Of a DNA stretch of 64,000 nt, positions 3,401 through 36,079 are shown piece after piece (position 1 is the stretch's first letter; each line of letters starts with the position of its first letter). The notes under the pieces were generated by a model. The model was not told where the DNA came from and made no database searches. It was given only the letters and a program-made list of their open reading frames with translations. The DNA is from Patescibacteria group bacterium. GTDB lineage: Bacteria; Patescibacteriota; UBA1384; XYA2-FULL-43-10; 1-14-0-10-43-13. Position numbers and translations under genes: made by a program. The stretch spans positions 31,102 to 95,101 of the forward strand of contig JBAYHC010000003.1 of NCBI GenBank assembly GCA_041666325.1, given 5' to 3'.

Positions 3401-6041
3401 CCAATATTGTTTTGCCAGCGTCCCTAAGCTGCTGTGCTGCGGCAAGCATCTTCGCATCCGTTTCCGAAACAACTTCGGCTTCTTGGCCCAAATACCAATG
3501 GTAGCCAACTAATTCAGAGTGTACAGCACTTCTTCGATTCACTCCTGGTCCCTCAATCGGAGCAAGATCTTCACCCAACCTCTTGATAGCATAAGAAACT
3601 TCTTCAAAGGCAATATCGTCATCTTCCTCTGCACTGTAGGCCTTAGTTTTTCGTGTGCTTTCTGATATCAGATCGCCTCTTGAGTTGTGCATAGGAATGA
3701 ATTCCCACCAACCCTCAGTCAAACGAATGATTATACGTCGCCCCTGCCTCATTTCTCCAAGCGCTTCCTGAAAACGAGGGTCTTTCTTTGACTTTCTGTC
3801 AGACTCATCATAAGAAATAGGACTAAATGATCCCATATCTGTGAAGCCCTCTGGGGTCTCAACTTCAATCGCCTTCCCCTTCTTCGTCTCTGTCTTTGGC
3901 TCTTCTGGGTGATACTCTGTGATTACGGCTAGCAGTTCATCGCCTCCAATCTCTTGTCCCTCGAGCATCAACTGTTCAATTTTTTCGTTTGACGTCAGAT
4001 CGTCAGCGCCAACGATTTCCTTCCTTCTACCTTCATTAATATTATCAAGAGACTCGTTAACCAAAACAATCCGTTCATTCTGATTTAGAACCCCAAATGA
4101 AGAATTCCAACCTTCCCCTGAATCACTCTTCTCTGCAACCAGAACATCACTTCGATCAGGCAAGTAGAGATAGCTTTTATCATTGTTAAATTTGAAGGCG
4201 AAGAATCGTCCGCCATGGAGGGTGATCACCATTGTCCAACTGACAGAGGCATCTAATCCCTCCGGTTTTAGGATGCTATTTTGAAAATCAAAGCAGAGAG
4301 ATCTCAGTGTCTCCCACATCTTCTTCTCATTGATGGTTGACAAGCTGTCATAGGCACCGGCAAGATCTTGAGCAATCTCCTGCAAACGATCCTGGGTCAA
4401 GCCAAGGTGTTCCGCGTGAGAATTAACGGCAATTAATATTTGCTGGTTCCCTCTCACCTGCTCAAACAAGAATGCGGACTGCCCTTCTTTGCCCCGTTCT
4501 TGTCGTCTCTCCCCTGTCGTGTCATAGGGATCAATCCTCTCTTCTCGTCTCTCTGACTCGTATTCTGCCGCATCTTCTTTGTCTCCTGCAGCTTCAACTG
4601 GAGAGGGTTCGCCCTCTGACTTCGGGGACGGTGTCGGAGCGCCCTCAGGTTCAGGACCTGGTGTCGGCGGTGTAGGTGTTGACTGTCCTTCTAGCGCTGA
4701 AGCCTCCTGTGCTTGCGGCGTTCCCTCCACTCTCTCCCCTCTACCTTCTACCCTCCCCCTTCCACCCTCTACTGTTCCAGTTGGCACATTTCCCGAAACA
4801 CCAAACTCTTTCTTTTTGCCGAAGAAATGGGAGGCACTCTCGCCCAGCAAATAAGCAAAAACTCCGCCAAGTTTTAGTTTCTCGGCAGTGCCAAGCCCAG
4901 CCAATAAGGCTTTTGGCATGCGCGCATCCAGGAGGTGACCCGCCTGTCCGTATAGGCTCTTTAAGCTCTCTCCGTCAAGCGTGTTGAATGTGCCACTCTT
5001 TCCTATTTCATTGACACGTTTGATTACGCCTTGGAGCCATTTGAGTTCATCCTGACCATTGGGCATCTGGTCGTAAGCAAACTGCCCCTTGTCCTTGAGA
5101 TTCCAAAAAACTCGATGAGTGTCAGACATCACAGGATTGTTGGGGTCAATTTTGGCAAAGGCCGTGGCTAGATCAGTGTTATTCTGGTCGTAGTTTGAGG
5201 GACCAAGCGGTACACCGGCAAATATTCCGGTCGCAAAAGTAAGCACCGAGGTTGCAACGGAGCGAATTTTTTTGAATCTCTCCTCCCCTGTCTTACCATA
5301 AACATTTTCCGTAATTTGCTCTACTGCCTGTCTTTCTGCTTGCGAAATTTCTAATTGATAACGAGAAAACTTCTCCTCGGTAAGAGTCCCGTCTAACGCT
5401 TCTTGCCTCATGCGAGTAACAACCTCGCCAACAGCTTGCTGCTTCGCGACCTCAGCCGCCGCTCTGTTCTTGCCCCAACCAAAGTGTTCTGCAGCTTGCA
5501 ATAGACCGTCATAGCCCTCTTTCAGACCAACGCCCCAGACAAGCGGAGTAAACACTCCTACACCGGAAAACACTGCCGTGGCGGCAGCGCCAAATCCGCC
5601 AAAAACTTTGGCGCCGATCTTGAGAGCTTTCTTCCAGTCGCCATTCTCGGTATAGATTCCGGCCTTGCGAAGATCGTCATCAATGTTTTCAGAAGGCTCT
5701 CTGGAGCTCCATTTGCCGGCCTGGTCGAACCAGGCACGAATCCGGCCATAGCTCTTGGAAATAGAATCGTCCGACTTATCAAGTCTCGCACCAAAACCAC
5801 CTAGTCCCACCCTTTTGCATACACGAGAAAGCAAAGAGAAGGGCTTGAGTCCCCCGTAGCGCTCGATCGCCCTATCTTGGTCTGTCCGGGCTAGATTGTT
5901 GATCCGTTCGAGAACACGAACCTTGATGTCGCTTCGCTCAACATTCTCGGTCTCTCGCTCTGGCTGAGCCGGAGTGCTTGCAACTTCGCTGGCAACATCT
6001 TCCCTCGCCATCTCTCCATTTTGTATGCTTGTTAAACTCAA
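402..6041 (-). CDS. Giant (1879 aa) membrane-anchored repeat protein, candidate surface adhesin. It has an N-terminal glycine-zipper TM hairpin, a Pro/Thr/Glu-rich linker and three tandem ~105-aa repeats.
   Basis: Uninterrupted 5.6-kb ORF. TTG start 5 nt after GGAGGG. Segments KVFGGFGAAATAVFSGVGVF and SVLTFATGIFAGVPLG are predicted TM. Low-complexity linker TPTPPTPGPEPEGAPTPSPKSEGEPSP. Repeats of the form VFVINSARDKDG...FENKTFKVKI...LFRVDVEIG occur three times. Confidence 0.8.
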   Translation of the reverse strand: MSLTSIQNGEMAREDVASEVASTPAQPERETENVERSDIKVRVLERINNLARTDQDRAIERYGGLKPFSLLSRVCKRVGLGGFGARLDKSDDSISKSYGRIRAWFDQAGKWSSREPSENIDDDLRKAGIYTENGDWKKALKIGAKVFGGFGAAATAVFSGVGVFTPLVWGVGLKEGYDGLLQAAEHFGWGKNRAAAEVAKQQAVGEVVTRMRQEALDGTLTEEKFSRYQLEISQAERQAVEQITENVYGKTGEERFKKIRSVATSVLTFATGIFAGVPLGPSNYDQNNTDLATAFAKIDPNNPVMSDTHRVFWNLKDKGQFAYDQMPNGQDELKWLQGVIKRVNEIGKSGTFNTLDGESLKSLYGQAGHLLDARMPKALLAGLGTAEKLKLGGVFAYLLGESASHFFGKKKEFGVSGNVPTGTVEGGRGRVEGRGERVEGTPQAQEASALEGQSTPTPPTPGPEPEGAPTPSPKSEGEPSPVEAAGDKEDAAEYESERREERIDPYDTTGERRQERGKEGQSAFLFEQVRGNQQILIAVNSHAEHLGLTQDRLQEIAQDLAGAYDSLSTINEKKMWETLRSLCFDFQNSILKPEGLDASVSWTMVITLHGGRFFAFKFNNDKSYLYLPDRSDVLVAEKSDSGEGWNSSFGVLNQNERIVLVNESLDNINEGRRKEIVGADDLTSNEKIEQLMLEGQEIGGDELLAVITEYHPEEPKTETKKGKAIEVETPEGFTDMGSFSPISYDESDRKSKKDPRFQEALGEMRQGRRIIIRLTEGWWEFIPMHNSRGDLISESTRKTKAYSAEEDDDIAFEEVSYAIKRLGEDLAPIEGPGVNRRSAVHSELVGYHWYLGQEAEVVSETDAKMLAAAQQLRDAGKTILAEMVFESKHKAVLVVEYDGAEFRLPVNALVLASGENVELDEDKSSPGKKPFRITRAMGNIDRPGTLLGVDIRFVMFSTGLDAASELKESGDVVGAKVIDSDGEPAIELSHHGKDFVFVINSARDKDGRGIPLKTRRNEFENKTFKVKILEAIESDKEPGKLFRVDVEIGAETEAGPTISDELRIARDLASANEVIHAKIIDSAGEPAIEFRLASGKTHVFIVNAATNSKGEGIHVKGERAKFENKRFNIRITDALEDRDHPGQLFRVNVEVGDEIEPGISEDLRVAREMAGAGDTIEAMIIDLGGYPAAVVEHEGARHTFVINAATNESGERIRFRGKRDKYENKTFKIKITEALEDRDNAGQLYRVNVEINETGAERKIDLSGYNFEDKGPIAGRGLFDFLDAVDRFTVGADEPVLAEREGIKALVTVITRSRDGRPNGFRYRLVDNDLSMTEERESDDMKLLIAPHGRSTWYLGHRKESGDPTPTGPEKRVELESKGLDFRGAVADDLNIFIENSNENLGGTPHGIYVEHEGQIYLVSFVAADRREASLYPVDDALQPNAAEVLVAVDKLEDAAEGYFWYYEKEEYSERDFKVASRLLQSGETISVRVMPSSVDGGKTISFDYDEQTREFDLDSDYEPQKELVESFEIGKEYNIRIVKVNRGKESLERWNVESVGVVLDSSDPGTTDAEFIDHLSGGKITVKPIAIERGSDIVAGIQIGSREFCMNEEYLRRNDTLAERLSGAFQADETIDVRITDTSAGDVPGSVESLSIELAFETPEGFMSKGTLTRGSKKDFVEAVRIALENARNPRVIIRSEKTGFNWEVIGIDSSKIRRIVVDDSFERPGKVYSDEVVIGDLVTSGSFEWFIEESKPADPGAQGNVDLKREADEGESRDKPDIIFATELVGQDYFPAIIKKRTIKGAAKWFIVHMESDREFAVEMSNQELAEDLEDRGHNRICQAKVVGVNPNSRGGLSSVTIEVRDFVIAKEEQGEEGTGV

Positions 6042-6172
6042 CTTGTCCCTCCAAAATAGCTAGTAAGCCCCACCAGGGGGCCCTCTGTGGGGGCGTGTAA
6101 GCGCGTAAGCAGTAAGCTTAAAGCATCGAAATATCCTCGAATTGCTTATTAGCCTACTCGCCTACTTGCTTA

Positions 6173-10604: not shown

Positions 10605-10922
10605 TTAATAACCTAAGTAGCTCATTCTGAAGTTGATCAAGGCCTGTGCCGTCACCTCGGTAATGTCGGGAATGGCGCGCTGAAGAAACTGTTGAACGTT
10701 ATTACCATCACCCTCACTCAACAGAGTACTAAGCTCTTCGATTTTTTCCGGTGGTGTCGCCGCCAAAAGAGCAGCATGAATATGCTCCTCTACCTTCTCC
10801 CGCAAATCTTTTCTGGCCTCGAATTTGGAGTCCTCATCGAGGTCGCTTAGCGGGCTTTCTTCTATGAGTCTGTCAACAAATATCTCGAGTTCGTCTTTGT
10901 TTTCTTCCCCTGCCATAGCCAT
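10605..10922 (-). CDS. Small acidic helical protein, paralog of 6173..6508.
   Basis: ORF with AAAGGA ribosome-binding site before the ATGGCTATG start. The track start at 10949 is a TTG with no RBS, so 10922 is preferred. Its stop is coupled to the start of the 1355-aa gene. Confidence 0.55.
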   Translation of the reverse strand: MAMAGEENKDELEIFVDRLIEESPLSDLDEDSKFEARKDLREKVEEHIHAALLAATPPEKIEELSTLLSEGDGNNVQQFLQRAIPDITEVTAQALINFRMSYLGY

Positions 10923-10959: not shown

Positions 10960-11000
10960 TGCTGCGAGATCTTTTTATCATTATACTGATGAATCAGTTA
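10960..11000 (-). promoter_or_regulatory. Candidate sigma70 promoter for the small-giant-small-giant operon (TATAAT -10 with a TTACGA-like -35).
   Basis: Minus-strand reading gives ...attacgataactgattcatcagTATAATgat upstream of the first small ORF. Confidence 0.3.
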
Positions 11001-11097
11001 TCGTAATAGTAGCTGTCTATCCGCCATGACCATAACTATCGATTTATTTGTCTAGAACATTATTTATTGGTACTTTTGCATCCGATGTTTTTGAATA

Positions 11098-11160
11098 AAA
11101 AAGAGGCCCGGTGCGACTCGCTCTACCATGGGGTAGAATGAGTCATTGCACCGGGCCGTG
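11098..11160 (-). terminator. Rho-independent terminator of the GC-island gene.
   Basis: GGCCCGGTGC...GCACCGGGCC stem with a nested TCTACC-ATGG-GGTAGA palindrome, followed on the minus strand by TCTTTTTTATT. Confidence 0.55.
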
Positions 11161-11197
11161 TCATAGGCACAGAACCTTTCTTGGGACCAGCGGGCCC

Positions 11198-12247
11198 CTA
11201 GCCGAAGAAGAAGAATCTGGCGTCCGGCCACCACAGCACGTTCAGCACCGCGAGGGCGAAGATGACGACACCGACGACGATGAGGATCCGAACCCACCTC
11301 GGGATACGTCCGATCCCCATGACCCATTCACTGATGCCGTAGGCGATGCTGGCTGCGAGGAGAAATCCCAGCCCCAGCTTGAAGATGCCCCAGAGCCACT
11401 CCCAGATGGTTCGGCCAGAGCCGGAATCCGGACTAGCCGGTGGGGCTCCTGCCCCGGGCGCGGGTGCGCCGGGCGCCGGTGCTGCTCCGGGTGTTCCGGG
11501 CGTGGGCGTACCAGGTGCCGGGACCACCACGGCAGGCAAATCATACCGCCCAGCGGGCGGAGACGGCCGACCGGTCTCAGCTTCGAGCAACCGCACCCGA
11601 TCATCGAGCGCCTTGTCGTTGAACTGCAACCTCCCTATCTCCCTCTTCCGGTTGCGGTTTGCCTGTTCCAGGCTCGCTACTCTGTCTTTGAGCCGAGAGA
11701 CAGACTGCGACAGCGCATTGAGCCGAAGCTCGAACTTGGCTGCCCAGCGTGCCACCTCGACCCTGACCATCTGCCGGATACTGGCGATCGAAGCGCCGAA
11801 GCGCTGGCCGGCCGACTGGTGTCGGCTGCTGCCGCGCCAGGCATGGCGGCGGCGCTCGGCGTAACGGCGCTTGTCGTAGCGCTTGCCGCCGGCGGTGACG
11901 CCGGTATTGCCACTAGACGGGGCCAGGGCGGCCGAAGGCCGCTTGGCGGGCGAGGTGGTCGTGACCGGCGGTGTACCGGAGCCCGGCCAATCCGGATCGG
12001 GTGCCGTGACCTCCGTGCCCGGGGCAGGTGCCGGCGACGTTGCCGTCGCAGGCGTAGCCTCTGCCGGAGCCGAAGCCTCGGCAGGCGCCTGCGGCGCGGC
12101 TGGCTTCTCGGGCTCGGTCGGCGCCTGGGGCGCGGATCCACCGTCCTCGGTGTAGACCTCGACGGCGCCCGGCGCCGCCATGGCGCCAATGTTGATCGAA
12201 GCGAACACGAGTGCGGCCACGAGGGCCGCCGCGAACAATACCTTCAC
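11198..12247 (-). CDS. Secreted or membrane-anchored Pro/Ala-rich protein encoded in a ~67% GC island. It has a signal peptide and a C-terminal TM segment.
   Basis: GTG start 7 nt after AGAGGGGAG gives MKVLFAAALVAALVFASINIGAMA-AP. Pro-rich tracts APQAPTEPEKPAAPQAPAEASAPAEATPATATSPAPAPG and PAPGTPTPGTPGAAPAPGAPAPGAGAPP. Central coiled-coil-like segment. C-terminal hydrophobic segment ILIVVGVVIFALAVLNVLWW. GC content is far above the flanks. Confidence 0.5.
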   Translation of the reverse strand: MKVLFAAALVAALVFASINIGAMAAPGAVEVYTEDGGSAPQAPTEPEKPAAPQAPAEASAPAEATPATATSPAPAPGTEVTAPDPDWPGSGTPPVTTTSPAKRPSAALAPSSGNTGVTAGGKRYDKRRYAERRRHAWRGSSRHQSAGQRFGASIASIRQMVRVEVARWAAKFELRLNALSQSVSRLKDRVASLEQANRNRKREIGRLQFNDKALDDRVRLLEAETGRPSPPAGRYDLPAVVVPAPGTPTPGTPGAAPAPGAPAPGAGAPPASPDSGSGRTIWEWLWGIFKLGLGFLLAASIAYGISEWVMGIGRIPRWVRILIVVGVVIFALAVLNVLWWPDARFFFFG

Positions 12248-12428
12248 GGTCGTACTCCCCTCTTCTGCCGCCCTTACGGGACGGCGCTTTCGCCGGCCCT
12301 GATGGGCGGCTCGAAGGACCATTTGAATCTGGCCTTCTGGCAATTGAATCCGGCTTTGGCGTTACTTCGCCAGCGCAGATACAATGTGTCAAAAGACAAC
12401 CTTACCCCTTAAAAAAATGCGACAATGT

Positions 12429-12504
12429 GTTGCACGGCTACGTACAGGCGGAGGGGGAACCTGTATTCCATCCCGACAAGTCGGGGGAGGAAGAGCCGTG
12501 CAAC
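12429..12504. ncRNA. Structured RNA-like element, copy 1 of a tandem pair. It is a three-way junction closed by an 11-bp P1 stem.
   Basis: P1 is GTTGCACGGCT/AGCCGTGCAAC. Hairpin 1 is ACAGG-[CGGAGGGGGAA]-CCTGT. Hairpin 2 is built around CCCGAC-AAGT-GTCGGG. On the minus strand it is followed by a short hairpin and a U7 tract (12411-12440). Confidence 0.4.
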
Positions 12505-12603
12505 ACGCTGTCGCACATACACATAATCGACTAACCTTGAAAGTGCCTGCTCCAATTCACCTTCAAGGAGAATAGCATCAGTCCAAAGAAAAAGGGCAAC
12601 ACT

Positions 12604-12685
12604 GCGCTGTATAACCCACCATAGGCGGAGGGGGAACCTACGTCCCTACCCCGATAAATCGGGAAGGGAAGAGATTATACAGCGC
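12604..12685. ncRNA. Structured RNA-like element, copy 2. It has the same architecture as copy 1 with compensatory stem changes.
   Basis: P1 is GCGCTGTATAA/TTATACAGCGC, a completely different sequence from copy 1 but still paired. Hairpin 1 is AGG-[CGGAGGGGGAA]-CCT with an identical 11-nt loop. Hairpin 2 is CCCGAT-AAA-ATCGGG. Confidence 0.4.
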
Positions 12686-12921
12686 GCTGCTGCCCTAAAT
12701 TGTCAAATGCTTTCTGGCGGCATGTGGTATCTCACCGTCAGAACATAGCATTGTATCATATTTTAAAGAGCTTGTCAATAGCTAACGCATTCTTGGCTTT
12801 TGTTTTCGATCTACCCATAGAATAACACATTTTCGGCAAAAACTAAAGACCCCTCGATCGAGAAAATCAGTATTTTATTGTTTACCAGACTAGATAACAA
12901 GCAAATGAATAGTTAACGGTG

Positions 12922-15497: not shown

Positions 15498-15900
15498 CCG
15501 ACTCCTTTCAGTCGTCACTCCTACAAAATTACAAATAAATCGAAATTACGAAATTACAAATAAATTCATTAAACATTCGTAATTTTGTATTTTCGTGAAG
15601 ATTCGTACTTTCGCAGGTGATTCGGTTATTTAAAAAATGCGGGCAAACCCGCAGACTTCCGTATTTAGCAAATCGTATTGCGTATTTCGAAAAACGAGAT
15701 ACGAACTGCGAATCACCATCTACGAACACATCCTCGGCAGGTAATTAAGCCGGATCCGTATTTCGTGGACCGTATTGCGTATTTCGAAAAACGAGATACG
15801 AACTACGAGTCACTATTTACGAACCAGCGCCTGCTGTCTGCGGATAAGACAAACAAATATTATCAAATTATGTTCTAAACGTCAATAGGGCTGGTAAGGC
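15498..15900 (-). promoter_or_regulatory. rplA-rplJ intergenic region and candidate L10 leader. It contains two ~56-bp direct repeats and a TACGAA-word palindrome.
   Basis: Direct repeats at about 15672-15735 and 15776-15838 read cgtattgcgtatttcgaaaaacgagatacgaact.cga.tcac.at.tacgaac. The position corresponds to the known L10(L12)4 autoregulatory leader location. Confidence 0.3.
15530..15630. repeat. MITE-like imperfect palindrome built from the ~45-bp TACGAAA/TTTCGTA repeat unit, a cargo-less copy of the repeat family that flanks the GxxExxY gene.
   Basis: Left arm cgaaattacgaaattacaaataaa, right arm attcgtaattttgtattttcgtgaagattcgtactttcgcagg. Confidence 0.45.
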
Positions 15901-16027
15901 AGTGGGGCCAGTCAAGCGGTTAAGCTCATAAAGTCATAAGGCCGTAAGGAGAAAAAGACTATTATTACTCTACTGTTCTACTAGCTTTACTGCCTTACTG
16001 GCCTTACTGCTCTATTGCCTTACCGTC

Positions 16028-16993: not shown

Positions 16994-18310
16994 GTGCCTA
17001 ACTACAGACACCACATCCGCGTACTAGATGACATATTCCGCGAACAATTCCGACCGCTCCCAATAGATTGGAACATGGGATTGAGATCAGAATACTTTGC
17101 CAGGCCAGGAAAAGCGCTTCGGCCAGCATTTTTCTACGCTTCATACTTGACATTTAGTGACCCGGACCGAAGATGGCTCGGATACAGCCAGCAAGCACTT
17201 TCGCCCTTACAGGACACGGATATCAGGAGAGAGCTTAAATTCCCGCTACTTTGGGAAATTGCCAATGCGCTCGAATGGCTCCATCTGGGGATCATGGCGG
17301 TAGACGATGCGATCGATCACGGTGAGCACCGCAGGGGTGGTACGTCTCTGTATCGGTTATTTGAAGAACATTTCCGGGAAAGGATCTACCACTTACCAAA
17401 GGAACGCGGCGAGTACACCATATCACCGGTGGCTGCCGTAGTTAATACGTTGACCTGGAACATGGTTGATCTGTGGGAGAGAGTTGTTTGGGTCAATGGT
17501 CAACCACTTGAGAGCTTCAATATCGCTGGTCAAGCGCTTCTGATGCCTAACGGCCGAGAGGGCCACTATGATTTTGACCACCAGCCAGCAACACACGACA
17601 TTTTCGGCCATCTCCAGAGAGTGATCAGTTCGGTTGCAGGCTGGAAAACGCACGAAAAGTCGACCCTGCAGTTGATGCAGGAGATTTACTTAACTGCCCT
17701 GCAAGAAACGCTCGATGGTGAGAAAAAGGATATTGAGTGGTCTAGTCGACCTGATTTTCCAACCATCGACGAATTGTTCCAAATCCAAGACGGCAAAACC
17801 TCCTGGTATTCGGTTATTCTGCCACTCTCACTTGGAGCAATACTAGGGCAAGGTGAGAACAAGGCAGAAATACTGAGAGCGTTGTATGATCTGGGGATCT
17901 GGTTTGGGAGAGCATTTCAGATTATTGACGACATGCTCATTATTGAAGCCCCAGACAAAGCCGGCAAGGATACCCGGTCCGACTTGGCTAATGGCTCAAA
18001 AACAACCGTCATCATCCTCCAGGGAGAGATGATGGCAGAGCCAGAGCGCCAAGAGTGGGCAGATCTGTTGGATTTGTGCAAGACCTCTGCGGAGGCCCAA
18101 GGCAAGGCCATCCGGATCATAGAGAACAGTGGCGTAATTAACCGCTGCCAACAAGTTGCTGCCGAGTGTGTAGCACATTGTGACTCTGCGCTAGCAACTA
18201 TCGAGAGCCTTGGCTATGACTCCAACCTTCTGAGACAATTAGTCAGAGATGGGCTTCATTGGATGGATGATGCAAAGATTGACACGATTGACAAACCAAA
18301 ACCGGGCTAG
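16994..18310 (+). CDS. Divergent trans-isoprenyl diphosphate synthase / terpene-synthase-fold protein (polyprenyl synthetase family).
   Basis: GTG start after GGAAGGGGGA. First Asp-rich motif MAVDDAIDHGEHRRG (DDxxD...RRG) and second motif FQIIDDMLII (DDxxD). It is the only substantial plus-strand gene in the window. Confidence 0.75.
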   Translation: MPNYRHHIRVLDDIFREQFRPLPIDWNMGLRSEYFARPGKALRPAFFYASYLTFSDPDRRWLGYSQQALSPLQDTDIRRELKFPLLWEIANALEWLHLGIMAVDDAIDHGEHRRGGTSLYRLFEEHFRERIYHLPKERGEYTISPVAAVVNTLTWNMVDLWERVVWVNGQPLESFNIAGQALLMPNGREGHYDFDHQPATHDIFGHLQRVISSVAGWKTHEKSTLQLMQEIYLTALQETLDGEKKDIEWSSRPDFPTIDELFQIQDGKTSWYSVILPLSLGAILGQGENKAEILRALYDLGIWFGRAFQIIDDMLIIEAPDKAGKDTRSDLANGSKTTVIILQGEMMAEPERQEWADLLDLCKTSAEAQGKAIRIIENSGVINRCQQVAAECVAHCDSALATIESLGYDSNLLRQLVRDGLHWMDDAKIDTIDKPKPG

Positions 18311-18968: not shown

Positions 18969-19002
18969 CTCGCTCCTATAAAACTACTCCCTCACCGAAA
19001 CC

Positions 19003-19472
19003 CTACCAAATTACGAATCGCACGAAAATACGAAAGTACGAATAATCATCTAATATTTAGTACCCGCTTGGATTCAACACCAGAGGAAGTTACATTGATA
19101 AGTATTCCAAGAGAAATATTTGTTGATTTAAGATATGAAAGCAATTGTGCGATATCACGTTTATGAAAATGATTACCAACCTTGAGCTCAAGAGCGATCC
19201 TGTCTTCAACTAGAAAGTCAAGGTAGTACCTGCCGATAACAGTATCTCCAACCATGATTGGCACGTGCAACTGGCACTTAAAGTTAATTTTGTTTTTAGA
19301 AAATACTTCTTCGAGAGCTTTCTGGTACGCCTTTTCTCTCAAACCATATCCCAACACGTTAAAAACCTCGAAGCAACAACCCATGATTCTGTAGCTCTCA
19401 TCTTTGTAAACTATATCCGTCATCGAATTCGTACTTTCGTATTTTCGCTAAATTCGTACTTTCGTCGGGGGC
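19003..19472. mobile_element. Candidate miniature mobile cassette: a GxxExxY-family gene exactly bracketed by ~40-bp imperfect terminal inverted repeats.
   Basis: Left inverted repeat aaattacgaatcgcacgaaaatacgaaagtacgaataatca abuts the stop codon. Right inverted repeat attcgtactttcgtattttcgctaaattcgtactttcg abuts the start codon. The two share an identical 21-bp core, cgaaaatacgaaagtacgaat and its reverse complement. Confidence 0.45.
19046..19423 (-). CDS. GxxExxY-family protein (PD-(D/E)xK-like small protein).
   Basis: MGCCFEVFNVLGYGLREKAY contains the G..E..Y signature. Size (~125 aa) is typical of the family. Confidence 0.8.
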   Translation of the reverse strand: MTDIVYKDESYRIMGCCFEVFNVLGYGLREKAYQKALEEVFSKNKINFKCQLHVPIMVGDTVIGRYYLDFLVEDRIALELKVGNHFHKRDIAQLLSYLKSTNISLGILINVTSSGVESKRVLNIR

Positions 19473-19794: not shown

Positions 19795-19898
19795 CCCTAC
19801 TAAATTACGAATTAATCGAAACTACGAAATTACAAACATATTCTTCATTTAATATTCGTAATTTTGTATTTTCGCTAGATTTGTACTTTTGTAGGGGC
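19795..19898. repeat. MITE-like imperfect palindrome of the same ~45-bp repeat family, bounded by CCCCTAC...GTAGGGG.
   Basis: The right arm attcgtaattttgtattttcgctagatttgtacttttgtagggg is ~85% identical to the right inverted repeat of the GxxExxY cassette. The left arm is its approximate reverse complement. Confidence 0.45.
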
Positions 19899-20578: not shown

Positions 20579-20593
20579 ACACCTCCTCCAAGG

Positions 20594-20640
20594 GCAATAA
20601 GGCCGTAGGGCCGTAGGGCCGTAGGGCCGTAGGGCCATAA
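20594..20640. repeat. (GGGCCGTAG)4 tandem nonamer followed by CTTAC/GTAAG-word low-complexity DNA.
   Basis: ggccgtagggccgtagggccgtagggccgtagggcc. Related TAAGG/CCTTACTG word-rich tracts occur at 15900-16020 and 41940-42040. Confidence 0.6.
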
Positions 20641-20708
20641 TGCGATAATGCTGTAAGACTGTAGTGCCAATAGCTTTGCTGCTTTGCCAGCCCTACTGTT
20701 CTGTTGCC

Positions 20709-25895: not shown

Positions 25896-26846
25896 TCAGA
25901 ATGCCGCTCCAGGCGGAGGCGTTGTCGGCGCCCCGGGCTGGTTGGCGTAGTCGTTGTTGGTCCACGACGTCGGTGGCAGAGGGGGTGGGCCTGAGCCACC
26001 GCCTGACCCCGGCAGACCGCCCGCGCCACCCGGCAGGGTGGGCGTGCCGCCCTGGCCCCCGTTGTCGTGGGGGGTGGTGACGAGCGGATCGTTGGGCGGG
26101 GGCGGCGGGTTGCCGTTGCCCGGTCCATTGCCAGGCTTGCCGCCCTGGCCGGGCTGACCACCCGGCGGGTTGATGATGTTCGTGTTGGTATTGCTATTGT
26201 TAACACGAATATTGTTCTGCTGCCTGGGGGTATAGCCCAGGCTACTGGAATGCCCCCAGCGCTCGGTGCGCGGAGCGCGCGCCGACCGGTACGACATCCC
26301 AAGGTCGACTTCGCCTCGGAAACGCCGCACGATCTTCGTGCGCCTCACGATCGGAGCCGGCGAAGCCGGGACCTCCGGGAGATCGACGTGCACCTGCGTC
26401 GCAGGTGCCTCGATCTCGACCTCAGTCTCAAACCTCTGGTCCCTGGGGGCGGGCGGGGGCGGGCAGACGTGCTTGGAAACAGACCAGCAGGCCGTGGAGA
26501 TGTTGCCGCAGCCTGCCTTCGAGATCGAATCCTTGTTCAGCGCCACGAAGACACGGGCGTTGAACTGGGTTCCCACCTGCCGGCCGTAGAAAACGCTACC
26601 TTCCGGCCAGCGAATGCGCCGCTGAACCCAGCCGCTCTTACGGTGCAGCGTGGTCGTGCCCCATACCGCGTACGGAGCGACGCCGACGACCTCGCCGGGC
26701 TGCATCTGCAGCACCTGGGCCCGGTCGGGGTTGGGATTCTGGAGCAGGTAGGAGACCTCGACGGTCTCCGTCGCCTGAGTTGCCGAAAGCGGAGCTGCCG
26801 CTGCGAAGGCCGCCAGGAGGACGACCAGCCACATGCGTATCCTCAT
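25896..26846 (-). CDS. Secreted protein with a Gly/Pro-rich C-terminal tail, encoded in a GC-rich island.
   Basis: Signal peptide MRIRMWLVVLLAAFAAAAPLSA. C-terminal low-complexity tail PPGGQPGQGGKPGNGPGNGNPPPPPNDP...GGAGGLPGSGGGSGPPPLPP. Start overlaps the stop of the upstream gene. Confidence 0.6.
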   Translation of the reverse strand: MRIRMWLVVLLAAFAAAAPLSATQATETVEVSYLLQNPNPDRAQVLQMQPGEVVGVAPYAVWGTTTLHRKSGWVQRRIRWPEGSVFYGRQVGTQFNARVFVALNKDSISKAGCGNISTACWSVSKHVCPPPPAPRDQRFETEVEIEAPATQVHVDLPEVPASPAPIVRRTKIVRRFRGEVDLGMSYRSARAPRTERWGHSSSLGYTPRQQNNIRVNNSNTNTNIINPPGGQPGQGGKPGNGPGNGNPPPPPNDPLVTTPHDNGGQGGTPTLPGGAGGLPGSGGGSGPPPLPPTSWTNNDYANQPGAPTTPPPGAAF

Positions 26847-27914
26847 CTACTTGCCCTCCTCCAAGGTCATGCGGTACTTCGCGTCGCCGCTGACCTTGAT
26901 GGTCGTCTTGTACAAGGTGCGGGTCTGCCGAGCAAACATTCGCACCACCACCACCGTTCCGGGCGGTGCCTTCACAACCAAAGGCTTGCCATCCGTCTGA
27001 GCCTTTTCGTGCCCGTCCGGCATAGCATATCGCTTGTAGACCTCCTTCCCGTCCGCTTCGACAACGGCGTCATACGGACCGCCGCCATAGCCGCGAGGCG
27101 GGAAGACCTTGATGGTCACCCGGCTTTCGCCGGAGTTAGTCTGCGAGGCGGCGTCTTGGATACGCTTGACGGCCTCATCGGTCGTCTGCCGCACATCATG
27201 ACGCCACTTCTCCAGCTCGGGGGTGTTCTCGACAGTCCCATTGCTGGTGCCCTCGTCGACTACCTCCTCGCTATCCTCGCCAGCGGCCGCGTCTGGGTTG
27301 GTCGGCATGCCACCGAAGTGATAGCCAGCCATCCAGCCCGCCAGCTGGTCGCCGGTGCAGTTCCCGCCCGGTCCCTCGACCAGGAAGTATTGCACGAAGT
27401 TGTTGTGCTTGGTCTTGCCGCGGAGCGAGAGAACGGGAATCCAGAGCGCGTAGTAACGGCTCAGCTTCCCGCCATCCAGCTCGACGATGGGATACATCGC
27501 ATGCGACCCCAAGCGCTGACCTGACGTGCTGACGAAGTCGACGAACCCCTCGCCCGGAGTCAAGGCTACCGGTGTTAGTCCCTTGATGATCCCGCTGGCC
27601 TCCTTGGAGGATGCTATCGGGATCGGGGACCACCTGATGCTCTTGATCTCCCCGCGCGAGGTTGAGATGTCCAGTCGCCGTCGGAGCGACGTGCCTCTGA
27701 CTGCCGTCAGGGCCTTGTCGGAGCGATCCGACCAGGTCCAGAACGGGTCACCCGAGGTAGCGCCCGACGCATAGTGATCGACGGCCACCGAGACGGTGAC
27801 CTCGGCCTTCTCGTACTGATTGTTGAGGCCGATGAGCCAACCGTCCGCCGCATTCGCGTTGCCAGTGATCACAGCAGACAGCAGGATCACCAGCAGCCAT
27901 GCTGCTTTTTGCAT
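26847..27914 (-). CDS. Secreted hypothetical protein in the same GC-rich island.
   Basis: Signal peptide MQKAAWLLVILLSAVITGNANA after an internal Met. Translationally coupled to the downstream gene. About 65% GC. Confidence 0.6.
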   Translation of the reverse strand: MQKAAWLLVILLSAVITGNANAADGWLIGLNNQYEKAEVTVSVAVDHYASGATSGDPFWTWSDRSDKALTAVRGTSLRRRLDISTSRGEIKSIRWSPIPIASSKEASGIIKGLTPVALTPGEGFVDFVSTSGQRLGSHAMYPIVELDGGKLSRYYALWIPVLSLRGKTKHNNFVQYFLVEGPGGNCTGDQLAGWMAGYHFGGMPTNPDAAAGEDSEEVVDEGTSNGTVENTPELEKWRHDVRQTTDEAVKRIQDAASQTNSGESRVTIKVFPPRGYGGGPYDAVVEADGKEVYKRYAMPDGHEKAQTDGKPLVVKAPPGTVVVVRMFARQTRTLYKTTIKVSGDAKYRMTLEEGK

Positions 27915-28079
27915 CTTCCCTCCCCTTTCTGCGTGATCACCTGCTGTGCAGGCGGTGATCGTCTGTGTGTGTACTATCTTCCTGGCAGCCTGCCCTGCCA
28001 GAAGATCATTCGGACTTAGCCTTCGCTTAGTCCGAGACATATGAAATGATTAATTAATTATTCACGCTAGCTCTCGCTC

Positions 28080-28160
28080 GTCATCCTGAGAGAATCGAAA
28101 GATCTCTTCGTATGCCGCGGGATTCTTCCCCCAACATGTCGGGATCAGAATGACAACTGG
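28080..28160. repeat. Boundary palindromic element A (GTCATCCTGAG ... TCAGAATGACAACTGG) at the right edge of the high-GC block of island 2.
   Basis: Terminal inverted repeat GTCATCCTGAG / CAGAATGAC. The interior has nested palindromes. The same terminal motif is found in element B at 36950-37091. Confidence 0.5.
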
Positions 28161-28321
28161 AAGCGTATCGCAATCATTTTCACTTCGTCTCAAACTAATT
28201 CCCTCTCTATAAACAAAATTGGGCACAAACTACTGTAGCCCAATACTATTATTGAATTCTCTGCCCCTCGTCAATACCTCGATGGTCAATGTTATCACCG
28301 CTTTCTTGGGCATAAGTCCTC

Positions 28322-28412
28322 AATCCCCTGCTAAATTACAAAGAAAACGAATTACCAAAACACGAATCTCAATTTATTTGTACTTTCGTGCGGTTATTCG
28401 TAATTTCGTAGG
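28322..28412. repeat. MITE-like palindrome of the TACGAA-word family (cctgctaaattac ... gtaatttcgtaggag).
   Basis: Arms are related to the inverted repeats of the GxxExxY cassette. Confidence 0.4.
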
Positions 28413-32902: not shown

Positions 32903-33118
32903 AGTCTCCTTTGTTAACAAAAAATGGAGTTTCCTCCAGGTTAAAAAACTCATTAGTCTAACATTGTCTCCAACTCTCGAGCCGCCCACCTCCGTGGTCA
33001 GCTCGAGGTTAGGCTCGGACCCGTGTCCGAGCAGGATTGGAAACTTGCCGCCTTTTCTCGCCCCCTATGTGTTCAGGGGGAATCACGGCTTATCGACCCG
33101 TTTCCAGGGCCGTGGCAC

Positions 33119-33616
33119 TCACTTGGCCAGCGCTTGCCGGCGCCGCTCGAGACCGAGGGCTCTTGACATTCTCTGAATCTCCCGATCTACCGCGCGCATA
33201 TTGAATTGCACGGCGTTGACAGTAGAGTAGGAACTTTCAGAGAGACAATTACCCTGCTTGTCCCGAACGATCACCCAGACGTAGTTGCCATAGTGGCCAG
33301 GCGTTACCTTGGACTCGACGATAAAGTCGGCCCCGGTAATACTGGTCCGCTTGGCACCCGCCTCGATGATCGCCTGCATTGCCCTGGAGACAAGCGGTCC
33401 GCCGTTCTTGGAAGCGACCGTCATGCCCGCGATGTCCGCCTCTTTGAGAGCACTCTTCACACTCTCAGGCAGCGCATCGTAGCGCTTGACGATCTTCGCC
33501 TCCTCGGTAGTCAGCAGACGCGGCTCGTCGTCCTTAACAGCACAACCGGCACAAGCCAGCGCAACGAACAGTAAGACAACGACTTTTTGTATTTGTTTCA
33601 CCCCCTCTCTGAGCAT
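33119..33616 (-). CDS. Lipoprotein (lipobox LACAGC) in a GC-elevated region.
   Basis: MLREGVKQIQKVVVLLFVALACAGCAV.... Confidence 0.5.
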   Translation of the reverse strand: MLREGVKQIQKVVVLLFVALACAGCAVKDDEPRLLTTEEAKIVKRYDALPESVKSALKEADIAGMTVASKNGGPLVSRAMQAIIEAGAKRTSITGADFIVESKVTPGHYGNYVWVIVRDKQGNCLSESSYSTVNAVQFNMRAVDREIQRMSRALGLERRRQALAK

Positions 33617-33698
33617 TCTCTGCTCAAGGTGAGCTCGGTTGCGGGTCGGACCCACACCCGAGCAGAGATACGAGGAGCTGCGCTTGCCGTTTTGCTGC

Positions 33699-34073
33699 TC
33701 ACTTGGCGCGAGCAAACCGGCGCTTGTAATAATCAACCTCCCTCCCTTCGTCATTGACCAGATGGTAGACGGCGATGTCCAGCCACTGGCCCGCCTCGAC
33801 CGGTCCGTTGGGATCGACGGTGCCGTCGTACTCGATCCGACCAGGCAGAGCGATCCTGCCCTCGTCGTACTCGAGACAGACGACATCCTGCTCGGTGTCC
33901 CCTCTGAGCTTGCAGGCAGCGGAGCCCGCCGGAGCCTTGACCCAGACCTCGACGAGGATGTCGCCGTTGGCCTGAGGCACGTACTCCTCTCGGGTGATCT
34001 CGCCGCCCTTGGTCTGGGCACAGCCGGCGAAAGCGAGAATGCCGAAGATAGCGATCAGTGCCAGTGCCTTCAT
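33699..34073 (-). CDS. Lipoprotein (lipobox LAFAGC).
   Basis: MKALALIAIFGILAFAGCAQ.... Confidence 0.55.
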   Translation of the reverse strand: MKALALIAIFGILAFAGCAQTKGGEITREEYVPQANGDILVEVWVKAPAGSAACKLRGDTEQDVVCLEYDEGRIALPGRIEYDGTVDPNGPVEAGQWLDIAVYHLVNDEGREVDYYKRRFARAK

Positions 34074-34711
34074 GAAACCCTTCCTTTCTGTGAACACACT
34101 ACAGTCTCCTCGCAAAGAGCTCCTTGAGCCCTTGTGCCAATAGACTGAAATGGCAACCCATTACAACAAAATCATTTACCAAAAACACACACCCTTTTGT
34201 CGCGTACGCTACAAAAGTGATGATGTTTTCAACCCTCAGAGGATAGCCCGATCACAAGATCGGGCAGGATCTATCTGAGAGCAGAAACCGGGGGCGGTGG
34301 AGATAATAGTATGGATGCTCGACTTGATAGCCAAAAACCCACACCCTCGTTCTCTCCACCAAGGCAACGAGTAGCCGTTTATAGCAACGGCGGTTGATGC
34401 CTGCCGGACACACTGGTGTGCCCAGCCCCTACGACGACATGCGGTCATCGCACAACACGACGTTATCTCGTGTTGCCGGTCTTTTCGGGCAGCGGAGTAG
34501 TTACCCACTTTTCCTCCACCGTCTTGCCGCAATCAGCCAAGCTGACACTGGCGGCAAAATAGGCTGAGCGGGTCCATGCCACCTGCGCCGAGCTCCTCGA
34601 TTAGGATCGACGACGCAAGTTAAGGCTCCTCTTTCTGCTTAACCTACCCTTACTGCTCAACCACTGGCAACAATGCTACCTAAGGTGGGTACCAGATAGT
34701 TGAGTTTTCCC

Positions 34712-34790
34712 GATGAGCATTCCGCTCTGAGTCAACCCTGAACCCGACGTGGTTCAGGGGGATATCAGAAAGGATCTGAGGTGGTGAAGA
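34712..34790. repeat. Repeat R1, containing the hairpin CCCTGAACC-n6-GGTTCAGGG.
   Basis: gagcattccgctctgagtcaaccctgaacccgacgtggttcagggggatatcagaaagg. Confidence 0.5.
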
Positions 34791-35819
34791 TAAGAACCGT
34801 CTTATCCAGACGTTCCCCGCTCTCTTCACGCAGGGCAGCCTCCCCGGCCAGGCCCTAGATGGCCCCGGCCTATTGAGTGAGCTCTAGCGGTACCACTATC
34901 TGCTGTGGTTGGCTATGTTCCCTCCCAAACAGATTTCGGGAAGCCGAGTAATCGCCCAGTTTTCCTCGGCCGTTTCACCGCACCGGTCTGATCCTTCCCC
35001 AGGGAAGAATAAGTTCCGGGGCGATAAATTCATCGAGACCAGTAAACAGCACCGTGTGCCGCCACTAATCTCACCCTTTGCGCCGGCTAGTTGAGTTGTA
35101 ACATGAGTCTATCAACCTCATGCCACCGGGTGTTCAACAATCATAGCCTGGCAATTTCAGGAAGCGTGGCCTTAATCCTGTAATTCATCCACGCTTTTCA
35201 CCGCACCAGTGGGTCTCGTGACCGTTCAAGGCGGTCGCGCCTTTCGGCTCCCGAGGTAGACCAACTGGAGGCGGCAAACAACTCGAAGGTGCTAGCACTA
35301 GGCCATCATTTGACCACCAGCACATTCTCGTCGCCTTTTTCATGACTGGGCGAATGACGGGATCGCGATTTCAGGTCGCGGCAGGTATCCCGATGCCCAG
35401 TCGCCGATTCCTTCCTCGGAGGATGGCCCGATCTCTAGTGGATCAAGGCCGGATCTTTCCGAAGAAAGAGTGGGGGTGTGGAGAATATAGTCGCCGTGGC
35501 GACCCTCGTCACCTCCACCACACCAGTTACGAGTGGGCTGAGTTACACCTCAGGTGCACCTGAGACTTGGCTCTTATGGCGGGCCTTTATCCGCCCCTGT
35601 GCCCATCTGGGACCCCCAATTTCGGGACGGCAGATAACTATCCGTCTTTCTCTGCCGGCTCGCCGCACCACACTGGGGGCGGCAAGTATCATCAAAATGT
35701 TGCGATGTCCGGTACATATCCCGGCTTGCTTTTTTTGACGACCCCTTCTTGTTGTCGATCCAGTAGGTGATTCACCCCGGCCTGTGCCGTTCGGATACTG
35801 CCTCGACAACCATTTTTAT

Positions 35820-35895
35820 TGAGCTTCCGCTCTGAGGCAACCCTGAACCCAATACGGTTCAGGGGGGATATCAGAGGGGAAATTGTGTCACCTCG
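35820..35895. repeat. Repeat R2, about 85% identical to R1.
   Basis: gagcttccgctctgaggcaaccctgaacccaatacggttcaggggggatatcagagggg. Confidence 0.5.
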
Positions 35896-36079
35896 ATTTG
35901 GATGAGTGTGGTTCGCCCTGGGTCCTCCAGGAAACAGGCGCCACGAAGGTGACAGCGGGGATCATATCTGCGCTTTCCTTTACCGCGCTTTTCTTATAAG
36001 TTTTGCAGCCCTTGGGCTATAACTTCTTATAAGACGGCCTGATACTAGCCGGATCGTTCTCGATCATCGAAGCTTCAAG

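What the first reader, a model, noticed from the sequence alone, without database searches (positions are those of the whole stretch)
19003..19472. A GxxExxY-family gene precisely bracketed by ~40-bp inverted repeats, with cargo-less palindromic copies of the same repeat at 15530-15630, 19795-19898 and 28322-28412. This looks like a MITE-like mobile family with a GxxExxY cargo.
The left inverted repeat (aaattacgaatcgcacgaaaatacgaaagtacgaataatca) ends at the stop codon. The right inverted repeat (cgaattcgtactttcgtattttcgctaaattcgtactttcg) begins at the start codon. The reverse complement of the right repeat matches the left one over an identical 21-bp core (cgaaaatacgaaagtacgaat) plus flanking similarity.

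The same ~45-bp unit recurs elsewhere as back-to-back inverted pairs with no gene between them. Those are MITE-like palindromes, consistent with excision or deletion derivatives. They also separate pth, ybaB and the metalloprotease gene.

GxxExxY proteins are PD-(D/E)xK-like and are frequently found in intervening sequences. A terminal-inverted-repeat-bounded cassette would give a concrete mobility mechanism for them.
Basis: seen in the sequence. Interest (0 to 1): 0.66.

Follow-up and report, generated by a model that had tools for sequence, protein, structure and literature searches.

The report
GxxExxY nuclease gene inside repeat hairpin
A small nuclease-like gene of unknown function sits inside a discrete repeat-bounded cassette that also exists in gene-less form, and the same gene-plus-repeat pairing recurs in dozens of unrelated genomes, which points to a previously undescribed kind of small mobile element.

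Summary
ORF 19046-19423(-) is a GxxExxY / PD-(D/E)xK protein. It is enclosed, to within 2-3 nt, by 43-nt inverted arms. Gene-less palindromes of the same family lie at 15520-15618, 19796-19897 and 28327-28412.

The arms are arrays of five 8-nt xTACGAAx units ending in CCCTAC.

- **Discrete unit.** Homologues with 81% and 62% protein identity, in other genomes and other gene contexts, carry the same arms in register. Homology stops exactly at CCCTAC...GTAGGG.
- **Constrained arms.** Synonymous sites are saturated, yet the arms stay 65-77% identical.
- **Insertion.** Eight Saccharibacteria relatives with conserved synteny lack the gene at this spacer.
- **Family-wide pairing.** Across 84 GxxExxY loci, CGAAT-core units are about 15-20-fold enriched just upstream of the gene, and their complement just downstream. 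Such arrays occur in 2 of 80 control loci.
- **Deletion series.** One contig holds a full cassette, an internally deleted copy keeping both ORF ends, and a minimal palindrome.

So this is a MITE/REPIN-like element family whose gene-bearing member encodes GxxExxY. Transposition itself, and the nuclease's role in it, are inferred. I found no target-site duplication and no RNA-wobble signature. I found no published description.

The parts
19427..19472 (-). 5' terminal inverted-repeat arm, in gene orientation. It has about five 8-nt xTACGAAx units. The outer end reads CCCCGAC on the - strand. It starts 3 nt upstream of the ATG and 3-6 nt after the ybaB stop codon.
   Evidence: (I1)
19046..19423 (-). 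GxxExxY gene of 125 aa, a minimal PD-(D/E)xK nuclease fold. E30, D69 and K81 are invariant and E79 is nearly invariant. There is no Shine-Dalgarno-like sequence and no promoter-like site in the 5' arm.
19001..19045 (-). 3' terminal inverted-repeat arm. It begins 2 nt after the stop codon. The outer end reads GTAGGG on the - strand (CCCTAC on the + strand). The pth ribosome-binding site follows about 25 nt further on.
   Evidence: (I1, D1)
19796..19897 (.). Gene-less palindrome of the same family (arms 19796-19843 and 19854-19897). It fills the spacer between the membrane-protein gene's stop codon and the ybaB ribosome-binding site. As RNA it folds to -33.3 kcal/mol, z = -5.6.
   Evidence: (D1, D3)
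15520..15618 (.). Gene-less palindrome of the same family. It lies between the terminator-like hairpin at 15638-15653 upstream of rplJ and the rplJ ribosome-binding site. As RNA it folds to -32.2 kcal/mol, z = -4.3.
   Evidence: (D1, D3)
28327..28412 (.). More degraded gene-less palindrome of the same family, in a 680-bp non-coding stretch. As RNA it folds with z = -2.4.
   Evidence: (D1, I14, I15)
15658..15824 (.). Two 70-nt copies (87% identical, 97 nt apart) of an 'inside-out' palindrome. It is built from the same CGTATT / ATACGA core. It is probably related, but membership is not established.
   Evidence: D5; I2, I3

Best explanation
Positions 19001-19472 are one discrete insertion cassette. 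It belongs to a widespread family of small palindromic repeat elements whose full-length members encode a GxxExxY PD-(D/E)xK nuclease.

**Anatomy.** The element ends are about 45-nt inverted arms. Each arm is an array of short units with a CGAAT-type core. In this lineage there are five 8-nt xTACGAAx units, with outer ends CCCTAC...GTAGGG. The ORF fills the space between the arms.

**Gene-less copies.** The palindromes at 15520, 19796 and 28327 are non-autonomous copies of the same element. By analogy with a related contig, they are internal-deletion derivatives.

**Setting.** The elements sit in spacers of co-directional operons, in the same orientation as the host genes. They carry no promoter or terminator of their own. 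They are probably transcribed by read-through and tolerated there.

**Inferred mechanism.** The GxxExxY protein acts as a dimer. It recognises the repeated units in the arms, as duplex DNA or as an extruded hairpin/cruciform. It cuts at or near the element, and host repair or recombination then copies or moves both gene-bearing and gene-less palindromes into other spacers. This would be functionally analogous to RAYT/REPIN, or to a homing nuclease whose target is the empty palindrome.

**Shown:** the anatomy, discrete boundaries, conservation of the arms, the family-wide gene-repeat association, the deletion series, absence from orthologous sites, and purifying selection on an intact catalytic motif.

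**Inferred:** that the protein binds or cuts the arms, and the way copies spread.
For: - **Boundaries.** An alignment of the window cassette with L082 (81% protein identity, in a TraC/TraG-like cluster) and L086 (62%, next to rml genes) shows homology starting at CCC(C)TAC and ending at GTAGGG. The flanks are unrelated.
- **Arms homologous in register.** This holds across the window, L082, L086 and L090.
- **Selection.** dN is 0.16-0.26 while dS is saturated. The arms are still 74-77% and 65-67% identical.
- **Insertion.** Synteny prfB-membrane-ybaB-pth-rplA is conserved in 8 Saccharibacteria relatives, and none has GxxExxY there.
- **Family-wide enrichment.** In 84 loci, CGAAT/CTAAT reaches 32-43 per kb in the 40 nt upstream, against about 2.5 per kb background. 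ATTCG/ATTAG reaches 33-47 per kb in the 40 nt downstream. Unit spacing peaks at 9-10 nt family-wide and 7-8 nt in the window's clade.
- **Specificity.** Arrays of 3 or more such units occur in 64 of 80 GxxExxY loci but in only 2 of 80 control loci covering 1.2 Mb.
- **Deletion series in L095.** It holds a full cassette (3951-4414). It also holds a derivative (2558-2708) that keeps both arms, the first ~55 nt of the ORF (42/53 identical) and the last ~16 nt. A minimal palindrome lies at 5233-5319.
- **Catalytic motif and fold.** E30, D69 and K81 are invariant and E79 nearly so. The AF2 model has pLDDT 93.7. The best fold matches are Cas4, lambda exonuclease and splicing endonuclease.
- **Dimer hint.** About a quarter of the best 150 family representatives are tandem two-domain fusions.
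- **Orientation.** The gene is co-oriented with its neighbours in 63/68 cases upstream and 58/62 downstream.
Against: - There is no target-site duplication at any of the window copies or at L082/L086.
- No recognised transposase or integrase family is encoded in the element. A 125-aa PD-(D/E)xK protein alone is not a known transposase.
- Copies within the window are only about 63-88% identical to each other, so there has been no recent burst.
- No strain-level empty site was found.
- 23S_rRNA_IVP genes are unrelated proteins, yet they show the same gene-in-periodic-array layout with varied units. The architecture might therefore be served by a factor other than the encoded protein.
- The strong co-orientation with host genes is not expected from a symmetric-end transposon. 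It fits expression hitch-hiking or a strand-specific process.
- The PADLOC, PHROGs, PDB-sequence and phage searches gave no functional clue.
Confidence: 0.55

Rival explanations
1. **IVS-like RNA module with a passenger gene.** The periodic palindromes are host-tolerated or host-useful RNA hairpins in polycistronic transcripts, serving as RNase III processing or stability elements. GxxExxY genes, like 23S_rRNA_IVP genes, merely exploit the loop as a promoter-less expression niche, as in 23S rRNA intervening sequences. The arms are conserved because they must pair. The protein has some other function.
For: - The 493-nt cassette RNA folds with a terminal ~45-bp stem enclosing the ORF (z = -3.8). 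The gene-less copies fold as long hairpins with z = -5.6 and -4.3.
- The cassettes carry no promoter or terminator of their own.
- About 93% are co-oriented with the neighbouring genes.
- The arms abut the start and stop codons.
- 23S_rRNA_IVP genes have the same layout, and in L008 one sits in the very same ybaB-pth spacer.
- Several other spacers in the window hold palindromes of the same architecture but with different units.
Against: - There is no wobble signature. Among arm mismatches, sense-strand G.U-type number 37 and A.C-type 43 (p = 0.58), and 148 of 228 mismatches are transversions.
- The CGAAT core is conserved with the protein family down to about 36% identity and across clades. 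Pairing alone would allow any sequence.
- Such arrays are nearly absent from control loci.
- This model does not explain how identical cassettes reach unrelated loci.
Confidence: 0.2
2. **Operator arrays of a DNA-binding protein.** GxxExxY is a sequence-specific DNA-binding or restriction-like protein. The flanking arrays are its own operators, used for autoregulation or an addiction-like function. The gene-less palindromes are decayed remnants with no mobility of their own.
For: - The family-wide association of the CGAAT-core arrays with the gene has fixed polarity.
- The unit variant and period track the protein clade.
- The L095 deletion derivative shows that gene loss leaves palindromes behind.
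Against: - Gene-less copies outnumber gene-bearing ones: 3 to 1 in the window, and several per contig elsewhere. They retain sharply defined, conserved ends.
- Each remnant would still require a former insertion, so this model still implies mobility.
- The catalytic residues are invariant, which argues for cleavage and not only binding.
Confidence: 0.12
3. **Generic signals or local slippage.** The repeats are generic intergenic signals (terminators or promoters), or local slippage products that arose independently in each spacer. Their position around the GxxExxY gene is coincidental.
For: - Many Saccharibacteria spacers contain short-period arrays and palindromes with different units.
- Tandem arrays without an inverted partner exist, for example in L008 at 5520-5640.
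Against: - The arms are homologous in register across genomes, including the position of the degenerate third unit.
- The terminal motif is 12 observed against 0.18 expected.
- No T-run follows the hairpins, and the scan reports no promoter-like or terminator-like site at these coordinates. Ordinary terminators exist elsewhere in the window.
- The association holds in 84 loci but in only 2 of 80 controls.
Confidence: 0.03

Closest known systems
REPIN / RAYT systems (REP-associated tyrosine transposases; Nunvar 2010 PMC2817692; Bertels & Rainey 2011 PMC3116915)
   Same: Short palindromic elements are dispersed in intergenic spacers. The associated gene is itself flanked by the repeats in inverted orientation. 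Many gene-less hairpin-forming copies exist per gene copy. There are no target-site duplications.
   Different: The gene here is a 125-aa PD-(D/E)xK (GxxExxY) protein, not an IS200/IS605-type Y1/HUH transposase. The arms are not self-complementary REPs but arrays of 8-10-nt units. The gene lies inside the hairpin loop. GxxExxY genes can occur more than once within 8 kb (L112, L136), unlike RAYTs, which are typically single-copy.
Bacterial MITEs (for example Correia/NEMIS, ERIC, RUP; review PMC3184786)
   Same: They have terminal inverted repeats, a size of about 100 bp, an intergenic location and co-transcription with neighbouring genes. They derive from a longer gene-bearing element by internal deletion, as seen here in L095.
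   Different: No target-site duplication was found. The parent element encodes no recognised transposase. The arms have an internal periodic structure.
23S rRNA intervening sequences carrying an ORF (23S_rRNA_IVP / S23p family; described as functionally uncharacterised in PMC11270868)
   Same: A small ORF is enclosed by inverted repeats that can form a long stem. It has no promoter of its own and is embedded in a highly expressed host transcript. 23S_rRNA_IVP genes in the fetched loci show the same periodic inverted arrays.
   Different: The host here is an mRNA spacer (ybaB-pth), not an rRNA helix. The protein family is unrelated. RNase III excision is not shown, and the arm mismatches give no RNA-pairing signature.
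Free-standing or PD-(D/E)xK homing endonuclease genes (for example I-Ssp6803I; from my own knowledge, not checked here)
   Same: A small selfish nuclease gene sits between host genes. The gene-less palindromes are plausible 'empty-site' targets. The flanking homology could serve for repair-mediated copying.
   Different: No intron or intein is involved. The putative target is a repeated array, not a unique site. Cleavage has not been demonstrated.
Transposon ends with arrays of subterminal protein-binding repeats (Tn7 TnsB sites, Ac/Ds and En/Spm subterminal repeats; from my own knowledge)
   Same: Multiple short repeated motifs are arranged in inverted orientation at the two ends of the element.
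   Different: Those elements are much larger and encode a DDE-type transposase. They generate target-site duplications.

Membership tests
GxxExxY protein family (TIGR04256 / Pfam PF13366 PDDEXK_3) | Profile score above the curated cut-off over the full length | tested here: met
   TIGR04256 scores 104.9 bits (cut-off 35), covering residues 9-121. PF13366 scores 102.3 bits (cut-off 22).
GxxExxY protein family (TIGR04256 / Pfam PF13366 PDDEXK_3) | The G-x-x-E-x-x-Y motif and the PD-(D/E)xK catalytic residues on an alpha-beta nuclease core | tested here: met
   G27, E30, Y33, D69 and K81 are invariant and E79 is nearly invariant in 30 sequences. The AF2 model has pLDDT 93.7 and the order H-H-E-E-E-H-E-E. 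Foldseek's best hits are Cas4 SSO0001, lambda exonuclease and splicing endonuclease.
MITE (miniature inverted-repeat transposable element) | Terminal inverted repeats bounding a short non-coding element present in several copies | tested here: met
   There are three gene-less copies of 86-102 bp with the conserved ends CCTAC...GTAGG.
MITE (miniature inverted-repeat transposable element) | Target-site duplication flanking the inverted repeats | tested here: not met
   The flanks of all four window copies and of L082 and L086 show no direct repeat.
MITE (miniature inverted-repeat transposable element) | Derivation from a longer autonomous element by internal deletion | tested here: met
   The L095 derivative at 2558-2708 keeps both arms plus the 5' ~55 nt and the 3' ~16 nt of the ORF of the neighbouring full cassette. 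Within the window the evidence is only suggestive: the loop sequence TCATTTAATATT resembles the ORF-end sequence TCATCTAATATT.
MITE (miniature inverted-repeat transposable element) | Parent element encodes a recognised transposase | tested here: not met
   The only ORF is the GxxExxY protein. It has no DDE, Y1, serine or tyrosine recombinase domain.
REPIN / RAYT | Associated gene flanked by the repeats in inverted orientation, with gene-less hairpin copies elsewhere | tested here: met
REPIN / RAYT | Associated gene is an IS200/IS605-like Y1 (HUH) transposase | tested here: not met
   The protein matches only PDDEXK_3 / TIGR04256.
REPIN / RAYT | Each repeat (REP) is itself a 20-40-nt palindrome, and two inverted REPs make one REPIN | tested here: not met
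   Each arm is a direct array of 8-nt units and is not self-complementary. Only arm-to-arm pairing is predicted.
23S rRNA intervening sequence (IVS) | Inserted in a 23S (or 16S) rRNA helix and excised by RNase III | tested here: not met
   The element lies between the protein-coding genes ybaB and pth. No rRNA or any other Rfam family is found in the window. RNase III processing cannot be tested with these tools.
Intrinsic (rho-independent) terminator | GC-rich stem followed by a T-run | tested here: not met
   The terminator scan reports nothing at the four sites. The stems are AT-rich and are followed by GGGGGTTAGGAG, GGGTTTCGG and similar sequences.
Integron gene cassette | ORF followed by an attC site, in an array next to an intI integrase gene | not tested
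   I did not search for an integrase. The copies are dispersed among housekeeping genes, not arrayed, and the ORF lies inside the palindrome, not beside it.

The most novel reading that the evidence does not exclude
GxxExxY proteins form a large family of unknown function, with about 22,000 clusters at 50% identity. In this reading they are the element-encoded nucleases of a previously unrecognised class of 'gene-in-hairpin' mobile elements. The ends of these elements are inverted arrays of 8-10-nt units that the protein itself recognises. This would be a PD-(D/E)xK counterpart of RAYT/REPIN.

23S_rRNA_IVP genes occupy the same architecture. Classical rRNA intervening sequences would then be just one landing site of this general element class.
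Probability: 0.35. Interest if true: 0.85.

Novelty: new variant of a known kind. Interest (0 to 1): 0.72.

Why it matters
GxxExxY/PDDEXK_3 is a very large family: 22,015 cluster representatives at E <= 1e-3. A 2012 superfamily survey lists its function as unknown (PMC3424549). I found no paper that links the family to any repeat.

The results give the family a concrete, testable substrate: arrays of CGAAT-core units arranged as inverted arms.

They also explain a class of odd periodic palindromes that fill the spacers of housekeeping operons in reduced Saccharibacteria/CPR genomes. Such elements can affect operon expression and confuse annotation.

The parallel layout of 23S_rRNA_IVP genes suggests a common logic for the long-unexplained ORFs in rRNA intervening sequences.

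If the nuclease does mobilise the palindromes, it would be a second, mechanistically different system of the RAYT/REPIN type.

Tried and rejected
- **Rfam.** A scan of the whole window gave no hit, so the hairpins are not a curated RNA family.
- **Phages and defence libraries.** tblastn against the phage collection found no match. PADLOC and PHROGs gave no hit for GxxExxY.
- **Literature.** Searches for GxxExxY, PDDEXK_3/PF13366, the motif strings, and PDDEXK together with MITE/REPIN found nothing describing the association.
- **Strain-level empty site.** All contigs encoding the identical YbaB protein carry the cassette.
- **Target-site duplications.** None were found.
- **RNA-pairing signature.** The G.U against A.C mismatch asymmetry test was negative.
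- **Promoter or terminator in the arms.** None were found.
- **Hairpin detection.** The ungapped inverted-repeat finder with short loops missed the periodic hairpins because of their regular mismatches. My own crude hairpin scan recovered only some of them.
- **Named organisms.** Distant plasmid-borne GxxExxY genes were mixed. Bernardetia has inverted CACAGAG arrays. Treponema has a single 11-bp inverted repeat containing CGAAT. Persicobacter has AATCC-type arrays that are not inverted. The CGAAT core therefore does not extend to the whole family.
- **Rejected ideas.** Generic terminator or promoter modules, and independent local slippage, are rejected (see the rival explanations). A GTAG-tagged REP relationship is not claimed, because the terminal GTAG follows simply from the TAC of the outermost unit.

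Full report
**1. Context.** The window comes from a Candidatus Saccharibacteria (CPR) genome. Its Pth protein finds only Saccharibacteria/Patescibacteria MAGs at 51-63% identity. The identical locus lies on a 687-kb ENA contig and on a Logan contig. Nearly all genes are on the - strand. Around the finding, the order on the - strand is prfB, a membrane protein, ybaB, GxxExxY, pth, then a polyprenyl synthase on the + strand, then rplA, rplJ and rplL.

**2.
- Arms 19001-19043 and 19427-19469 are 43 nt and 84% complementary. This is the longest inverted repeat in the window.
- They enclose ORF 19046-19423(-), leaving 2 nt to the stop codon and 3 nt to the start codon.
- The ORF is a full-length GxxExxY/PDDEXK_3 protein.
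- Gene-less palindromes of the same family lie at 15520-15618, 19796-19897 and 28327-28412.
- The terminal motif CCTACNAAATTACRAA gives 12 hits against 0.18 expected. The hits mark all eight arm ends plus four internal units of the same arms, and occur nowhere else.
- Each arm is a tandem array of about five 8-nt units (xTACGAAx). The outermost unit reads CCCTAC.

**3. It is a discrete unit found at unrelated loci.**
- The closest homologues sit in different gene neighbourhoods. P0002 (81% identity) is in a TraC/TraG-like cluster. P0003 (62%) is beside rml genes.
- Both are bracketed by the same arms.
- In a three-way alignment, similarity begins at CCC(C)TAC and ends at GTAGGG. The flanks are unrelated.
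- The arms from the window, L082, L086 and L090 align in register. This includes a degenerate third unit at the same position. The arms therefore share descent and are not independent slippage products.
- Between these copies dN is 0.16-0.26 and dS is saturated. The arms nevertheless remain 65-77% identical, so they are under constraint.

**4. It is an insertion at this site.** Eight Saccharibacteria relatives keep the prfB-membrane-ybaB-pth-rplA order, and none has GxxExxY between ybaB and pth. Their spacers (99-557 bp) hold unrelated sequence. This is often another periodic palindrome. In L008 it is a 23S_rRNA_IVP gene bracketed by AGCTTATT/AATAAGCT arrays.

**5. The gene-repeat pairing is family-wide.**
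- A metagenome scan with the family alignment returned 80 loci at 36-61% identity.
- Over 84 non-redundant GxxExxY genes, CGAAT/CTAAT on the sense strand reaches 32-43 per kb in the 40 nt before the start codon, against about 2.5 per kb background. ATTCG/ATTAG reaches 33-47 per kb in the 40 nt after the stop codon.
- Unit spacing peaks at 9-10 nt overall and at 7-8 nt in the window's clade. The unit variant tracks the protein clade.
- Arrays of 3 or more such units occur in 64 of 80 GxxExxY loci, but in only 2 of 80 control (Pth) loci totalling 1.2 Mb.
- In 34 loci with clear arms, the median arm is 37.5 nt at 84% identity. The median gap is about 6 nt to the start codon and about 5 nt from the stop codon.
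- Very distant members can differ. Bernardetia uses CACAGAG units.

**6. Gene-less copies derive from gene-bearing ones.** Contig L095 has three elements of one family in three successive spacers of co-directional genes:
- a full cassette (3951-4414);
- a derivative (2558-2708) that keeps both arms, the first ~55 nt of the ORF (42/53 identical, reading MPLRNDLIYKDECHRIIK*) and the last ~16 nt;
- a minimal palindrome (5233-5319).

This is the internal-deletion logic of MITEs. In the window, the loop of the 19796 copy contains TCATTTAATATT, compared with TCATCTAATATT at the ORF end in the cassette (11 of 12 positions). That is only suggestive.

**7. The protein.**
- E30, D69 and K81 are invariant and E79 is nearly invariant.
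- The AF2 model is confident (pLDDT 93.7). It is a minimal PD-(D/E)xK core, closest to Cas4, lambda exonuclease and splicing endonucleases.
- No solved structure is a sequence relative.
- The family has 22,015 representatives at E <= 1e-3. About a quarter of the best 150 are tandem two-domain fusions, which suggests that a dimer is the working unit.

**8. Setting and expression.**
- The arms contain no promoter-like or terminator-like site, and no Shine-Dalgarno sequence precedes the ATG.
- Ordinary GC-stem/T-run terminators exist elsewhere in the window.
- GxxExxY genes are co-oriented with their upstream neighbour in 63 of 68 cases and with their downstream neighbour in 58 of 62. The cassettes therefore sit in operons and are probably expressed by read-through.
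- As RNA, the cassette folds with a terminal ~45-bp stem (z = -3.8). The gene-less copies fold as long hairpins with regular single mismatches (z = -5.6, -4.3 and -2.4).
- The arm mismatches show no G.U bias on the sense strand (37 against 43) and are mostly transversions. I therefore see no specific evidence for selection on RNA pairing.

**9. Interpretation.** The best-supported reading is a MITE/REPIN-like element family whose full-length member encodes GxxExxY.
- The nuclease probably recognises the repeated units and promotes copying. This step is inferred.
- The main rival is an IVS-like RNA module with a passenger gene. It is kept alive by the parallel 23S_rRNA_IVP layout: 8 of 8 such genes are flanked by periodic arrays, and 6 of 8 have a significant inverted repeat.
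- The element fails the membership tests for MITEs (no target-site duplication, no transposase), REPIN/RAYT (no Y1 transposase, arms not REPs), rRNA IVS (not in rRNA) and terminators. It therefore works like these elements without belonging to them.

**10. Novelty.** PDDEXK_3 is listed as 'Unknown' in the 2012 superfamily survey. 23S_rRNA_IVP is called functionally uncharacterised in 2024. No paper in the searchable library contains the motif strings or links PDDEXK proteins with MITE/REPIN-type repeats. I rate it a new variant of a known kind.

Noticed in passing
window 6080-6172; 15883-16027; 44294-44437; 60232-60346; 61430-61600; also 20591-20708: Other intergenic spacers hold palindromes of the same architecture (arms made of 8-9-nt periodic units) but with different units: GTAAGC, GTAAGG/CCTTAC, AAAGTTCGT and others. 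As RNA they fold with z = -3.4 to -4.4. The exception is 20591-20708, a 4.5-copy AGGGCCGT array that forms no clear hairpin (z = -0.6). No associated gene is seen in the window.
   Followed up: partly
L008:4398-4757, L006:1706-2062, L098:7007-7366, L108:1237-1596, L131:3171-3545, L137:4375-4734 and 5538-5909, L147:750-1133: All eight 23S_rRNA_IVP (PF05635) genes present in the fetched loci are flanked by short periodic arrays in inverted orientation. Six of the eight have a significant inverted repeat (z >= 5). The units differ at every locus. The L008 copy sits in the same ybaB-pth spacer that holds GxxExxY in the window.
   Followed up: partly
window 15658-15727 and 15755-15824: Two 70-nt copies (87% identical) of an 'inside-out' palindrome (CGTATT...|...ATACGA) share the core of the TACGAA family. 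They lie in the 509-bp rplA-rplJ spacer, which holds at least four palindromic modules in all.
   Followed up: no
84 GxxExxY loci (L082-L170 and the window): GxxExxY genes are co-oriented with the upstream neighbour in 63 of 68 cases and with the downstream neighbour in 58 of 62. A symmetric-ended transposon would be expected to show about 50%.
   Followed up: partly
protein family (P0044, P0047, P0048, P0052 and others): About a quarter of the best 150 family representatives are 250-277-aa proteins with two tandem GxxExxY domains.
   Followed up: no
window 12418-12515 and about 12600-12690: Two tandem copies of a ~95-nt element, each with a long closing stem and a conserved GGCGGAGGGGGAACCT segment. 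There is no Rfam match.
   Followed up: no
window 11000-12400; 25900-28040; 33000-37000: GC-rich islands (63%, 62-66% and 55-60%) stand out in a genome of about 46% GC. The 25.9-28.0 kb island has two ORFs (316 and 397 aa) with no Pfam hit. The 33-37 kb region has a repeated TTCCGCTCTGAG.CAACCCTGAACCC...GGTTCAGGGGG element at 34720-34761 and 35825-35866. These could be foreign DNA or mis-binned or chimeric segments.
   Followed up: no
window 28081-28165 and 36951-37085; also L005:3095-3150, L006:9860-9960 and 10690-10830, L008:5810-5905: A different repeat with the ends GTCATCCTGAG...TCAGAATGAC recurs in the non-coding stretches of several Saccharibacteria loci.
   Followed up: no
L006:9690-9850: The 3' end of ybaB is duplicated as a ~98-bp direct repeat, together with an array of four TACGAAT octamers. 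No inverted partner and no GxxExxY gene is present.
   Followed up: no
window 16994-18310 (+): A polyprenyl synthase gene on the opposite strand lies between pth and rplA. In the eight relatives pth is followed directly by rplA.
   Followed up: no
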